Sequence record: PZ053912.1 | Source: a phage | Length of the DNA stretch: 64,000 nucleotides | Strand: one strand, 5' to 3' | In this document: piece after piece, positions 37,240 through 41,653 of the stretch | How the letters are laid out: every line of letters begins with the position of its first letter | How positions within the stretch are numbered: position 1 is the stretch's first letter | Program-made: the position numbers and the translations under genes | The notes under the pieces: generated by a model | Told to the model about the DNA's origin: nothing | Seen by the model: the letters and a program-made list of their open reading frames with translations, nothing else | Database searches by the model: none

Positions 37240-37536
37240 TTACATAAGAAGCAAACGTTCCGCCGGAGTACCATCAACCGAAATTACTTTATCAAGGCGG
37301 AAAGAACGCCACTGACCTAACTTGGTATCGAATGCTCGAACTGATTCACGAGGTTCATAACGAACTTCTGTTGCCGGATTGTTATTTTCGTATTTGACTT
37401 CAAGTTCATCGCGCGAAGCAAACATAGTGCGTACCTCACCGTTAGCCTTTTCAAATACAACACAATGAACGCCTACAGACAGAATAGTTTTAATACGTTC
37501 ACGAAGAACCATAGTTTCTTGTTCAGTTAAAATCAT
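37240..37536 (-). CDS. hypothetical protein (98 aa; 31.1-like position)
   Basis: ORF between cd and 31. Confidence 0.55.
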   Translation of the reverse strand: MILTEQETMVLRERIKTILSVGVHCVVFEKANGEVRTMFASRDELEVKYENNNPATEVRYEPRESVRAFDTKLGQWRSFRLDKVISVDGTPAERLLLM

Positions 37537-37538
37537 AA

Positions 37539-38120
37539 TTATTCACCACAAAAGTTTCGGATTTGTTCCCAATTCAGAGAACGAAGATTATTACGAGAGT
37601 ACTGAATTACTTCAATACCGGCTTGTTTTAGAATGTCTGCCCAATTTTCAGGAGATCTGTCATATAATTCTGCGTATACAACCTTTTTAATACCTGACTG
37701 CGTAATAGCTTTAGTGCAATCAGGACATGGAGAAAGTGTCGTATACAACGTAGCACCTTCAATAGAATTACCTTTACGAGCTGCAAACAAAATGGCATTC
37801 AATTCAGCATGGATTTCGTTATTAGCAGACCATGCACTATGAGCGGCCCGATGTTCTTTAGCCAAAACAAAATTATCCACCCGTCCAAATGCTGTAGTGC
37901 CTTCTTTATGTCCAGCAACGATGACCGGGCTTGGTTTATTCTTCAACCAACCATTTTCGGATGCATGTTCACAACAGTTAACGCCACCTGCTGGTGAGCC
38001 ATTATATCCAGTAGAGATAATGCGTCCATCTTTTTCAATGACTGCGCCAACTTTCCATGAACAACATTTTGATTCTTGAGAAATCAGATATGCAATCTGA
38101 AGGTATGTGCTAGCTTTCAT
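37539..38120 (-). CDS. cd: dCMP deaminase
   Basis: 193 aa; zinc-binding HAE and PCxxC motifs (NEIHAELNAI, SPCPDCTKAI); size as T4 cd. Confidence 0.95.
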   Translation of the reverse strand: MKASTYLQIAYLISQESKCCSWKVGAVIEKDGRIISTGYNGSPAGGVNCCEHASENGWLKNKPSPVIVAGHKEGTTAFGRVDNFVLAKEHRAAHSAWSANNEIHAELNAILFAARKGNSIEGATLYTTLSPCPDCTKAITQSGIKKVVYAELYDRSPENWADILKQAGIEVIQYSRNNLRSLNWEQIRNFCGE

Positions 38121-39112
38121 TATTGAACCTTATTAATATAAGTTAACAGCTCTTTAGTTTGTTCCCAACTGATGCACGCATCGGTAACGGAAACACCATA
38201 GGACATATTATCGGAAATTTTTTGATTTCCTTCATGTAGGAATGATTCTATCATAATTCCTTTGACCAAATCATTAGCTGCTAAATTTTTACCAATACCA
38301 ATTTGATTGCTATAATGTCCATCAGCGTTTGCATGGCTACAGTCAACCATTACATAATGATTCAGACCTACTGCCCTTGCTTTGTTAGAAGCTTCTTGAA
38401 TATCAGAAGAATGATAGTTCGGGCCGTTAGTCCCGCCACGCAATACGATATGCGTATTCTGATTACCTTCAGCTTCAACAATGCCTACAGTACCATCGAC
38501 GTCCATACCCATATACCGATGAGGCCAGGCGGCACTATACATCGCGTCTGTAGCTACTTTAATAGAACCATTGGTTGCGTTCTTGAAGCCTACGCACATC
38601 GGTAGACCTGAAGCAATTTCACGATGCGTCTGACTTTCAGTCGTACGGGCGCCAATAGCAACCCATGAGAAAATACCAGAAAGATACTTAATCGTGAATG
38701 GGTCTAATACTTCAGTTGCTAATGGAAGTCCCATACGTAGAAGTTTACGACACAATGTTCGTGCAACTATAAGACCGTGGTTCATATCAAAACTTCCGTC
38801 AAGATATGGATCATTTACAAGACCTTTCCAACCTACGGTAGTTCGAGGCTTTTCAAAATAAACGCGCATCACTAACAGAACATTAGGAAGACGAGTTTGA
38901 AGTTCAGCCAGACGTTTGCCGTATTCAACAGCAGCAATAGGGTCATGAATTGAACAAGGACCTACAACAATAAGTTTGCGTGGGTCTTCACCGTTCATAA
39001 TCGAATTAACTTGTTCGCGATGAGAAGCCACTTGTGATGCGTAAGCTTCCGACAAAGGAATAATCTCAGCCAGTTCTTTTGGAGAAATAAGTTTTCTGAT
39101 GACAGGTAACAT
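38120..39112 (-). CDS. 3-deoxy-D-arabino-heptulosonate-7-phosphate (DAHP) synthase, class I AroG-like
   Basis: 330 aa aligns along its length with remembered E. coli AroG: LIVVGPCSIHDP, RVYFEKPRTTVGWKGL, AIGARTTESQ.HRE.ASGL, FSHAN, ESFLHEGNQ, TDACI.WE; metal ligands Cys/His/Glu/Asp conserved; AAGGA RBS; stop overlaps cd start. Confidence 0.9.
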   Translation of the reverse strand: MLPVIRKLISPKELAEIIPLSEAYASQVASHREQVNSIMNGEDPRKLIVVGPCSIHDPIAAVEYGKRLAELQTRLPNVLLVMRVYFEKPRTTVGWKGLVNDPYLDGSFDMNHGLIVARTLCRKLLRMGLPLATEVLDPFTIKYLSGIFSWVAIGARTTESQTHREIASGLPMCVGFKNATNGSIKVATDAMYSAAWPHRYMGMDVDGTVGIVEAEGNQNTHIVLRGGTNGPNYHSSDIQEASNKARAVGLNHYVMVDCSHANADGHYSNQIGIGKNLAANDLVKGIMIESFLHEGNQKISDNMSYGVSVTDACISWEQTKELLTYINKVQ

Positions 39113-39233
39113 AACAATCCTTAGGAGATATAAACAGATTCTGATTCAACAATACCTTTAACCGGATTAGACAGGCTAAGTTGGTAGTGCTCAGATTTAT
39201 GACCATTCACGATAGTAATGAGATAGCTCCTCA

Positions 39234-39470
39234 TTATAGTGTTCCATATACTCGAGTTGCTTCAACAAGACCATCACTGCCTAATTTAAGATTAGTAATT
39301 TGGTCACCATCTTTAGGATTAACGATTATGAGAAAAGAACGTGGAGATTCTTGAATAACTCGTAATGTTGCATCTTGGAAACGTTCAGACACTTTATTGA
39401 TGAGTGCTTGAGCAAATTCTTTTACTTTAATCTGAAATTCGTGTACTGTAATTGGGTTTTCACTTAGCAT
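39234..39470 (-). CDS. hypothetical protein (78 aa)
   Basis: ORF preceded by early-promoter-like motif 39499-39528. Confidence 0.55.
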   Translation of the reverse strand: MLSENPITVHEFQIKVKEFAQALINKVSERFQDATLRVIQESPRSFLIIVNPKDGDQITNLKLGSDGLVEATRVYGTL

Positions 39471-39498
39471 TTCTATTTCCTCATTTGTTGGTAGAGTT

Positions 39499-39528
39499 AT
39501 AGTATCACAACTCCACCATGTTGTAAAC
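39499..39528 (-). promoter_or_regulatory. early-type promoter (GTTTAC-N18-TGaTACTAT)
   Basis: Motif on minus strand about 30 nt upstream of the 78-aa ORF. Confidence 0.45.
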
Positions 39529-39530
39529 CA

Positions 39531-39806
39531 TTAAATTGCTTTGCATTCAATTTTTTGTGTACCGAAATTGATATCACATTGGATAACTAAATCGCCGTCA
39601 AGATCAAATACCACTATGACGTGTGCAGACCCAGGGAGAAGAGTAATAGCAATAGAATCTACTTGGTCTGGGAGCAAAGCATTGAGTACATGAGTTAGTT
39701 GAGCATGAACTCTGAGTTCGGCTGCATTATCAAGCACTTCAAACATATTATTAGCAATAATCTGACTGAAGACTACCTTTACAATTTCAGAATAAGTTGG
39801 GAACAT
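39531..39806 (-). CDS. hypothetical protein (91 aa)
   Basis: ORF in pseT-cd hypervariable interval. Confidence 0.5.
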   Translation of the reverse strand: MFPTYSEIVKVVFSQIIANNMFEVLDNAAELRVHAQLTHVLNALLPDQVDSIAITLLPGSAHVIVVFDLDGDLVIQCDINFGTQKIECKAI

Positions 39807-39813
39807 AATTACC

Positions 39814-40038
39814 TCAGTGTACAGTATTTACTTTAACTCGAACAACAAATCGCTCGGTCGGTTCACCTACAGGAACAAACTCTACATGATATTCACCTTT
39901 GTAACGAGTATTCAGATCATTACGAATTCCTGCGAGTTTGTTGATTAATGTAGGACTCATATTAAGTCCCACTAGTTTACGAAGCATTTTGTATGCTTCA
40001 TCTTCGATTTCATGATGTTTATCGTACATAGTTTTCAT
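39814..40038 (-). CDS. hypothetical protein (74 aa)
   Basis: ORF in pseT-cd interval. Confidence 0.5.
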   Translation of the reverse strand: MKTMYDKHHEIEDEAYKMLRKLVGLNMSPTLINKLAGIRNDLNTRYKGEYHVEFVPVGEPTERFVVRVKVNTVH

Positions 40039-40209
40039 TTAACCATTCAATTGCCTGGTCGACGTTATCAAATATACCGCCGTCCAACCATTCTTCATGT
40101 TCATAGTCCAGCACATCAATACCGAACCGTCCATTTACTAAAGGCCATACTACAAACAAATATTCTTTATGCTGTTCGATGGCCTCAATCACTTCATATA
40201 ATCGTTTCA

Positions 40210-40210
<1 letters not shown>
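40019..40210 (-). CDS. hypothetical protein (63 aa)
   Basis: ORF immediately downstream of pseT. Confidence 0.45.
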
Positions 40211-41296
<1,086 letters not shown>

Positions 41297-41596: not shown

Positions 41597-41653
41597 TTAG
41601 ATTTCCTCAATTATCCATAGGAGCATTATACTCTGCTCCCGAGAGTTTGTAAA

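What the first reader, a model, noticed from the sequence alone, without database searches (positions are those of the whole stretch)
39234..40210. Block of four small unknown ORFs between the DAHP synthase gene and pseT
Four consecutive minus-strand ORFs (78, 91, 74 and 63 aa) with no recognisable domains fill the interval that is hypervariable among T4-like phages. The first is served by an early-type promoter. Such blocks commonly encode host-takeover or anti-defence factors and are where lineage-specific novelties are expected.
Basis: inference. Interest (0 to 1): 0.45.

Follow-up and report, generated by a model that had tools for sequence, protein, structure and literature searches.

The report
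Conserved T4 cd.2–cd.4 small early genes
The four small genes are real and expressed, but they are well-known, widely conserved "hypothetical" early genes of T4-type phages (cd.4, an RB69ORF227c-type gene, cd.3, cd.2), not lineage-specific novelties, and their function remains unknown.

Summary
The four minus-strand ORFs exist exactly as described (63, 74, 91, 78 aa; 40210→39234). The window is a Mosigvirus-type coliphage, 99.9% identical here to published phages. Three ORFs are orthologues of T4 Cd.4 (52% id), Cd.3 (79%) and Cd.2 (65%). The fourth is the RB69ORF227c family, which T4 lacks but 338 other sequenced phages have. All four fall in PHROG families, and three in Pfam DUF families. All are under purifying selection. 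Published T4 data show the three T4 orthologues are transcribed early, detected as proteins and dispensable in laboratory hosts. The early promoter in front of the 78-aa ORF is real and conserved with T4. The variable parts of the interval are its edges. T4's cd.5 is missing, and cd.1 is replaced by a DAHP-synthase cassette that carried in the 3' half of a foreign cd.2 (a 37-aa remnant ORF). AlphaFold models of Cd.3 and ORF74 are confident small α/β sandwiches. Their nearest free-standing relatives are gp25/IraD-like proteins, with no catalytic signature. The most likely role is stoichiometric protein-binding "monkey-wrench" factors that are useful only under some conditions. No target was identified. 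This is ordinary and already annotated; interest is low.

The parts
40019..40210 (-). ORF63: orthologue of T4 Cd.4 (phrog_2360; PF26883 by precomputed annotation). Acidic, pI 4.3, net charge about -9. Its start overlaps the pseT stop (TAATG).
   Evidence: 52% id to T4 Cd.4, E 1e-26; 687 phage records
39814..40038 (-). ORF74: RB69ORF227c family (phrog_3609). Absent from T4 and not related to T4 Cd.5. The conserved start is probably the ATG at 40029 (71 aa). Basic, pI 9.0. The AF2 model is helix-helix-strand-strand.
   Evidence: 338 records; pLDDT 86.1
39531..39806 (-). ORF91: orthologue of T4 Cd.3 (Pfam DUF7355, phrog_1695). Acidic and unusually hydrophobic (GRAVY +0.59). The AF2 model is a two-helix, four-strand sandwich.
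   Evidence: 79% id to T4; 912 records; pLDDT 89.4
39499..39528 (-). T4-early-type promoter (GTTTAC -35, TG-extended -10 TACTAT) serving ORF78. It is homologous to T4 Pe133295.
39489..39518 (-). Conserved stem-loop that encloses the -10 element of that promoter. It would form only in read-through RNA from the pseT operon and has no U-tract after it.
   Evidence: dG -16.9 kcal/mol, z -5.7; 11 pairs, 3 with compensatory changes, none broken, across Mosig-, Tequatro- and Dhakavirus
39234..39470 (-). ORF78: orthologue of T4 Cd.2 (Pfam DUF7320, phrog_1504).
   Evidence: 65% id to T4; 794 records
39121..39234 (-). ORF37: 3' remnant (residues about 46-77) of a second, foreign cd.2 that arrived with the DAHP synthase cassette. 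The reading frame is intact in 140 Mosigvirus records (phrog_15876).
   Evidence: (matches DUF7320 positions 44-76)
38120..39112 (-). DAHP synthase (context). It occupies the place of T4 cd.1. It is collinear at 82% nucleotide identity, from window 39225 downward, with a metagenomic contig that carries a full-length cd.2 followed by DAHP synthase.
40210..41109 (-). pseT polynucleotide kinase/phosphatase (context). It is the upstream gene of the same operon.
41625..41653 (-). Strong sigma-70/early-type promoter (TTTACA-N17-TATAAT, 11 of 12 matches). It is the likely source of the transcript covering pseT, ORF63, ORF74 and ORF91.
   Evidence: the same site is annotated as a promoter in phage SA79RD

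Best explanation
SHOWN: the block is the ordinary pseT-to-cd early gene cluster of a Mosigvirus-type T-even phage. In transcription order it encodes the orthologue of T4 Cd.4, an RB69ORF227c-family protein that T4 has lost, the orthologue of T4 Cd.3, an internal early promoter, and the orthologue of T4 Cd.2. A 37-aa remnant of a foreign cd.2 and the DAHP synthase it arrived with follow. All four are genuine protein-coding genes under purifying selection. The T4 orthologues of three of them (Cd.2, Cd.3, Cd.4) are transcribed early, detected as proteins and dispensable for growth on laboratory E. coli; ORF74 has no T4 counterpart, so there is no expression or fitness evidence for it. INFERRED: they are non-enzymatic proteins of 7-10 kDa that act stoichiometrically by binding another macromolecule, a host or phage protein. 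This is the class of non-essential early T4 products that Kutter called 'monkey wrenches', which adjust the infected cell and matter only in some hosts or conditions. Cd.3 and ORF74 are predicted to be compact two-layer alpha/beta sandwiches whose nearest free-standing structural neighbours are gp25/IraD-type proteins. IraD itself works purely by binding a partner (RssB). Cd.4 and Cd.3 are strongly acidic. The targets are unknown.
Confidence: 0.55

Rival explanations
1. They are dedicated anti-defence proteins, each inhibiting a specific bacterial immune system. This is the sharper form of the first reader's suggestion.
For: They are small, early and dispensable in K-12/B-type laboratory hosts. 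They sit next to pseT, itself a counter-defence gene that repairs PrrC-cleaved tRNA (established knowledge) and that scored as conditionally important on clinical isolates in HIDEN-SEQ. Other T4 genes of unknown function, nrdC.1 and tk.4, have recently proved to be anti-defence factors.
Against: Known anti-defence genes are usually patchy and fast-evolving. These four are present in 338-912 phage records across many genera. Cd.3 is more conserved than the neighbouring enzymes. None of cd.2-cd.5 is named among the highlighted conditionally essential hits in the parts of the HIDEN-SEQ preprint I read, which covered T4 and Bas37 on RexAB, RnlAB, CBASS, DarTG1/2, Mokosh, Septu, Druantia and clinical isolates. 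There is no match to PADLOC models, though that library holds defence proteins and not anti-defence proteins.
Confidence: 0.2
2. They are accessory or regulatory subunits of phage enzyme machinery encoded around them. The candidates are the PseT/RnlA RNA-repair pair or dCMP deaminase and the dNTP-synthesising complex.
For: The position between pseT and cd is invariant in 11 lineages. In Karam-, Gelderlandvirus and Citrobacter phages, O74, Cd.3, Cd.2, Cd.1 and cd are joined by 1-11-nt stop/start overlaps, suggesting translational coupling and fixed stoichiometry. Conservation is strong, and Cd.3 is hydrophobic, as expected for a buried subunit.
Against: Gene order is conserved genome-wide in T-even phages, so adjacency is weak evidence. 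In E. coli T-evens an early promoter, and sometimes an extra 175-184-aa gene, splits Cd.3 from Cd.2. cd.1 can be replaced by an unrelated DAHP synthase. No such subunits are known for T4 PseT or Cd (my knowledge of the T4 literature, not searched exhaustively).
Confidence: 0.13
3. The block consists of lineage-specific novel genes produced by a hypervariable region.
For: The interval does vary in content among genera, and one of the four has no T4 counterpart.
Against: Searches show orthology to T4 for three of them. Searches show the fourth in at least six other genera. One search shows 99.9% nucleotide identity to many published phages.
Confidence: 0.02

Closest known systems
Bacteriophage T4 Cd.2 (P39498), Cd.3 (P39499) and Cd.4 (P39500), 'conserved hypothetical' early proteins
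   Same: Sequence identity is 65%, 79% and 52% over the full length. They have the same order and strand between pseT and cd. The same early promoter lies between cd.3 and cd.2. They belong to the same Pfam/PHROG families.
   Different: The window lacks T4 cd.5 and cd.1. It has an extra gene (ORF74) between cd.4 and cd.3, and a DAHP synthase cassette after cd.2.
RB69ORF227c family (phrog_3609)
   Same: ORF74 is a full-length member. The family shows 22 invariant residues across genera, including the C-terminal TVH.
   Different: None of substance. The annotated start in the window's lineage is three codons longer than the conserved start.
GpW/gp25/IraD-like fold (T4 gp25 sheath initiator, T6SS TssE, E. 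coli anti-adaptor IraD)
Small non-essential early T4 effectors ('monkey wrenches'), e.g. Dmd, IPI*, Arn, AsiA
   Same: Similar size (60-90 aa), early expression, dispensability in laboratory hosts, and absence of catalytic motifs.
   Different: No target or phenotype is known for these four, and there is no sequence relationship to any characterised effector.

Membership tests
T4 Cd.2 / Pfam DUF7320 (PF24005) | Full-length match above the Pfam gathering score | tested here: met
   ORF78 scores 121.5 bits against a cutoff of 27, covering 1-77 of 78. It is 65% identical to T4 Cd.2.
T4 Cd.2 / Pfam DUF7320 (PF24005) | Syntenic position immediately after cd.3 and upstream of cd | tested here: met
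   Gene-order table across 24 loci.
T4 Cd.3 / Pfam DUF7355 (PF24051) | Full-length match above the Pfam gathering score | tested here: met
   ORF91 scores 119.4 bits against a cutoff of 27. It is 79% identical to T4 Cd.3. BFVD structural matches to DUF7355 proteins have TM 0.8-0.97.
T4 Cd.4 (phrog_2360; PF26883) | Full-length sequence match and position directly after pseT/cd.5 | tested here: met
   PHROG E 2e-33. ORF63 is 52% identical to T4 Cd.4. Relatives carry PF26883 in precomputed annotation; that model is not in the local Pfam copy. Synteny is shown.
T4 Cd.5 (Pfam T4_Y13H, PF25744) | Sequence match of ORF74, or of any ORF in the block, to Cd.5 | tested here: not met
   BLASTP of ORF74 against T4 Cd.5 gives no alignment. 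There is no Pfam hit for ORF74, whereas T4 Cd.5 hits PF25744. The Cd.5 family HMM finds no member in the window.
RB69ORF227c family (phrog_3609) | Full-length profile match | tested here: met
   E 3.5e-41, with residues 4-74 covering profile positions 1-71 of 71. The SA79RD annotation names RB69ORF227c as the relative.
GpW/gp25/IraD family (PF04965) | Sequence-profile match to the family | tested here: not met
   The Pfam scan at E <= 0.1 gives only DUF7355 for ORF91 and nothing for ORF74.
GpW/gp25/IraD family (PF04965) | Shared fold | tested here: inconclusive
   [not shown]
Anti-defence proteins | Relief of a specific defence system by the protein, or sensitisation of the phage on deletion | not testable with these tools
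   This needs experiments. Only indirect literature evidence was available.
Tandem paralogue array (my own hypothesis that Cd.2, Cd.3, ORF74 and Cd.4 are diverged copies) | Significant profile-profile similarity between the families | tested here: not met
   hhalign best probability is 10.5% (Cd.3 against Cd.2, 9 columns), and all other pairs are below 2%.

The most novel reading that the evidence does not exclude
Cd.3 and ORF74 may be phage-encoded, free-standing IraD/gp25-fold binders. With Cd.2 and Cd.4 they might form a translationally coupled module that captures a host regulator, much as IraD sequesters RssB. Alternatively the module might dock onto the phage's dCMP-deaminase/dNTP machinery. 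Either would give the first function for a gene set conserved across essentially all enterobacterial T-even phages.
Probability: 0.07. Interest if true: 0.6.

Novelty: already known. Interest (0 to 1): 0.15.

Why it matters
As it stands, it matters little. These genes are annotated as conserved hypotheticals in hundreds of T-even genomes, and the window's copies are 99.9% identical to published ones. The useful points are corrective and contextual. First, the pseT-cd interval is a conserved small-gene core with mosaic edges, not a nursery of lineage-specific genes. Second, Cd.3 is more constrained than the enzymes beside it, so it is a sensible first target among the many unknown T4 early genes. 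Third, the truncated foreign cd.2 next to the DAHP synthase gene shows how that metabolic gene entered Mosigviruses: by recombination inside cd.2 with a phage that already had the cd.2-DAHP synthase arrangement.

Tried and rejected
1. I tested whether ORF74 is T4 Cd.5, as its position near pseT suggests. There is no similarity. Both genes coexist in Melville, QL01 and Ursula.

3. PDB sequence and profile searches found nothing below E 0.1.

4. NCBIfam, PADLOC and Rfam scans gave nothing usable.

5. Literature searches by gene name, DUF number and RB69 ORF name found no paper on function. The 'cd.N' strings mostly hit Crohn's and coeliac disease papers.

6. An exhaustive HMMER search of 1.84 billion representatives with Cd.2 found only 9 clusters. 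The two long proteins among them are low-scoring multi-repeat matches and were ignored.

7. P0010 and P0013, ORF74 relatives with a PF03484 (PheT B5) hit, are chimeric metagenome contigs. The ORF74 N-terminus is joined to a bacterial PheT fragment, so this is not a domain clue.

8. I tested whether two unassigned ORFs of Serratia phage 4S are divergent Cd.3 genes. The result is inconclusive (E 0.018 and 0.16).

9. Reading the stem-loop at 39489-39518 as an intrinsic terminator, as annotated in phage SA79RD, is not supported. No U-tract follows the stem, and the consensus scan did not call it.

Full report
**What is in the sequence**

- 40019-40210, 63 aa
- 39814-40038, 74 aa
- 39531-39806, 91 aa
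- 39234-39470, 78 aa

Upstream is pseT (40210-41109; PNKP phosphatase and kinase domains). Downstream is a class-I DAHP synthase (38120-39112), followed by dCMP deaminase and the gp31.1/gp31 homologues.

The genes are packed as an operon:
- The pseT stop overlaps the ORF63 start (TAATG).
- ORF63 and ORF74 overlap by 20 nt, or 11 nt if ORF74 starts at its fourth codon.
- ORF74 and ORF91 are 7 nt apart, with a GAGG ribosome-binding site.
- A 60-nt spacer precedes ORF78, which has a GAGGAAA site.

A 1.5-kb query across the block is 99.9% identical to Shigella phage SSE1 and Escherichia phages F2, ST0 and HX01. It matches 252 phage records. The taxonomy line read (phage SA79RD) is Straboviridae, Tevenvirinae, Mosigvirus.

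**Identity of the ORFs**

Pairwise BLASTP against the T4 reference region gives the following:

| Window ORF | T4 counterpart | Identity |
|---|---|---|
| ORF63 | Cd.4 | 52%, E 1e-26 |
| ORF91 | Cd.3 | 79%, E 3e-53 |
| ORF78 | Cd.2 | 65%, E 7e-35 |
| ORF74 | none (Cd.5 tested) | no alignment |

- The phage SA79RD annotation names the ORF74 homologue as RB69ORF227c.
- All four hit PHROG families of unknown function at E 1e-33 to 1e-41.
- ORF78 is Pfam DUF7320 and ORF91 is DUF7355.
- Relatives of ORF63 carry PF26883 in precomputed annotation.
- tblastn against 50,697 phage records finds Cd.4 in 687, ORF74 in 338, Cd.3 in 912 and Cd.2 in 794.
- ORF74 relatives are 65-75% identical in Dhakavirus, Karamvirus, Gelderlandvirus, Marfavirus and Citrobacter phages, and 41% identical in Serratia phage 4S. 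Twenty-two residues are invariant.
- All relatives start at the window's fourth codon, so the true product is probably 71 aa.

**Synteny**

I fetched the pseT-cd interval from 24 loci, with named phage representatives of Tequatro-, Mosig-, Dhaka-, Marfa-, Jiaoda-, Karam- and Gelderlandvirus plus unclassified Klebsiella, Citrobacter and Serratia phages. I classified every ORF with iteratively built HMMs.

The common order is pseT, Cd.5, Cd.4, ORF74, Cd.3, Cd.2, Cd.1, cd.
- Salmonella phage Melville has all six small genes.
- T4 lacks ORF74.
- The window lacks Cd.5 and has DAHP synthase where Cd.1 sits.
- Some phages carry an extra 175-184-aa gene with no Pfam match between Cd.3 and Cd.2.
- Karamvirus KMB20 has a GIY-YIG endonuclease after pseT.

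So the interval is mosaic, but the four flagged genes are its conserved core.

**Evidence that the genes are real and expressed**

- Nei-Gojobori estimates against T4, QL01, Melville and another locus give saturated dS and much lower dN.
- dN/dS is 0.06-0.48 where dS is estimable.
- Cd.3 has dN 0.137 against T4, lower than PseT (0.236) and Cd (0.237).
- In T4, published time-resolved omics class Cd.2 as early RNA/early protein and Cd.3 and Cd.4 as early RNA/middle protein (PMC9697503 supplementary files 4 and 6).
- The CRISPRi-ART knock-down screen scores cd.1-cd.5 near zero and calls them 'Not Fit' (PMC11879866 supplementary file 15). I read this as dispensable on the laboratory host.
- None of them is named among the highlighted conditionally essential genes in the parts of the HIDEN-SEQ preprint I read.

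**Promoters**

- The consensus scan finds TTTACA-N17-TACTAT with an upstream TG at 39527-39499.
- This promoter aligns base-for-base with the T4 sequence annotated as early promoter Pe133295, and with the homologous sites in SA79RD and QL01.
- That fits Cd.2 being the only 'early protein' of the set in T4.
- ORF63, ORF74 and ORF91 have no promoter of their own. The nearest strong site is TTTACA-N17-TATAAT at 41653-41625, upstream of two small genes and pseT.
- The total number of promoter-like hits in the region is below the shuffle expectation (6 against 10.1). The case for these two sites therefore rests on conservation and position, not on the scan alone.

**Structure**

AlphaFold2 with shallow alignments still gave confident models.

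| Protein | Mean pLDDT | pTM | Secondary structure |
|---|---|---|---|
| Cd.3 | 89.4 | 0.81 | helix 5-20, helix 27-44, four strands |
| ORF74 | 86.1 | 0.72 | two helices, two strands |

- Pilins and Tctex light chains also appear.

Foldseek against BFVD returns DUF7355 orthologues (TM up to 0.97). After those come weak baseplate-wedge and IraD/Gp25-like proteins at E 1e-3 to 1e-2.

The fold is a common two-layer alpha/beta sandwich. The gp25/IraD class is the nearest set of free-standing small proteins, but Pfam PF04965 is not matched, so I do not file these proteins there.

Charges:
- Cd.4 has pI 4.3 and net charge about -9.
- Cd.3 has pI 4.45, net charge -7 and GRAVY +0.59.
- ORF74 has pI 9.0.
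- Cd.2 has pI 5.7.

**Mechanism**

Nothing points to catalysis. The proteins are small, early, conserved, dispensable in the laboratory and confined to T4-like phages. An exhaustive HMMER search with Cd.2 found 9 clusters in 1.84 billion representatives.

My best reading is that they are stoichiometric binding proteins of the non-essential early 'monkey wrench' class described for T4 (PMC6071114). I put confidence at about 0.55 for the class. The targets are unknown.

The rivals are:
- Specific anti-defence factors (0.2). Their breadth and conservation argue against this.
- Accessory subunits of the PseT/RnlA or Cd/dNTP machinery (0.13). Invariant position and translational coupling in several genera favour this, but the evidence is weak because T-even gene order is conserved everywhere.

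**By-products**

- *ORF37 (39121-39234) is not an independent invention.*
  - It matches positions 44-76 of DUF7320 and converges on the Cd.2 HMM.
  - It is closer to the Cd.2 C-terminus of Marfavirus AmPh_EK29 (52-55% identity) than to the resident Cd.2 (32%).
  - A Cd.2 variant from the representatives search (P0044) has a visibly closer C-terminus.
  - P0044 lies on a contig where a full-length cd.2 is followed 10 nt later by a DAHP synthase gene.
  - That contig is collinear with the window at 82% nucleotide identity, from window 39225 (codon about 46 of the donor cd.2) through the DAHP synthase gene. Its two indels are in-frame.
  - The remnant is intact in 140 Mosigvirus records. The same number of records cover at least 80% of the query that spans the cassette junction.
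  - Marfavirus also has cd.2 directly followed by DAHP synthase.
  - I conclude that the DAHP synthase gene entered Mosigviruses by recombination inside cd.2.
- *A 13-bp stem-loop (39489-39518) encloses the -10 element of the internal promoter.*
  - Its free energy is -16.9 kcal/mol, with z -5.7.
  - The stem is kept in Tequatro-, Mosig- and Dhakaviruses.
  - Three of its pairs are compensated in Dhakavirus and none is broken.
  - The compensations probably reflect only one or two evolutionary events.

**Verdict**

The genes are already known as families and their function is unknown. Interest is low.

Noticed in passing
window 39121-39234 (-), junction near 39225-39234; L024; L017: The 37-aa ORF is the 3' remnant of a foreign cd.2 that came in with the DAHP synthase gene. 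It is collinear at 82% nucleotide identity with a contig carrying a full cd.2 followed by DAHP synthase. It is closer to the Marfavirus-type Cd.2 than to the resident copy and is intact in 140 Mosigvirus records. It is a recombination scar showing how the metabolic gene was acquired.
   Followed up: yes
window 39489-39518 (-): A conserved 11-13-bp stem-loop wraps the -10 element of the cd.2 early promoter (dG -16.9 kcal/mol, z -5.7). Three pairs show compensatory changes in Dhakavirus and none is broken. No U-tract follows, so it is not a canonical terminator, and its function is unknown. Phage SA79RD annotates it as a terminator.
   Followed up: partly
window 40029 versus 40038 (-): The annotated 74-aa ORF probably starts three codons later (MYDKH..., 71 aa). 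That is the start used by all relatives in other genera and by the PHROG profile.
   Followed up: partly
[not shown]
   Followed up: no
L005-L007, L011-L015 (between cd.3 and cd.2); L020 2772-3491: Some Tequatro-like and Dhaka-like phages carry an extra 175-184-aa gene with no Pfam match, inserted just after the cd.3-cd.2 promoter. Karamvirus KMB20 has a GIY-YIG/NUMOD3 homing endonuclease between pseT and the ORF74 homologue, where cd.5 and cd.4 would be.
   Followed up: partly
P0010, P0013 (relatives of ORF74): Two metagenome-derived 'relatives' are chimeras. The ORF74 N-terminus is joined to a bacterial PheT B5-domain fragment (PF03484). This is most likely an assembly artefact.
   Followed up: partly
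public records H41 (T6, AP018814.1) and H12 (HX01, NC_018855.1): The Cd.3 orthologue is annotated as 'DNA methylase' in a T6 record. One ORF of this block is annotated as 'olfactory receptor-like protein' in HX01. Nothing found here supports either name.
   Followed up: no
L023 3501-3786 (Klebsiella phage Nispero); L019 1525-2421 (Serratia phage 4S): Cd.3 is split into two ORFs in Nispero, and pseT is split into two ORFs in 4S. These may be frameshifts or sequencing errors in those records.
   Followed up: no
window 37240-37536 (-): The gp31.1 homologue downstream of cd carries a WYL_2 / Sm-like SH3 beta-barrel domain (PF10902, E 2e-9). Some records label it 'tail fiber protein', which looks like annotation drift.
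   Followed up: no
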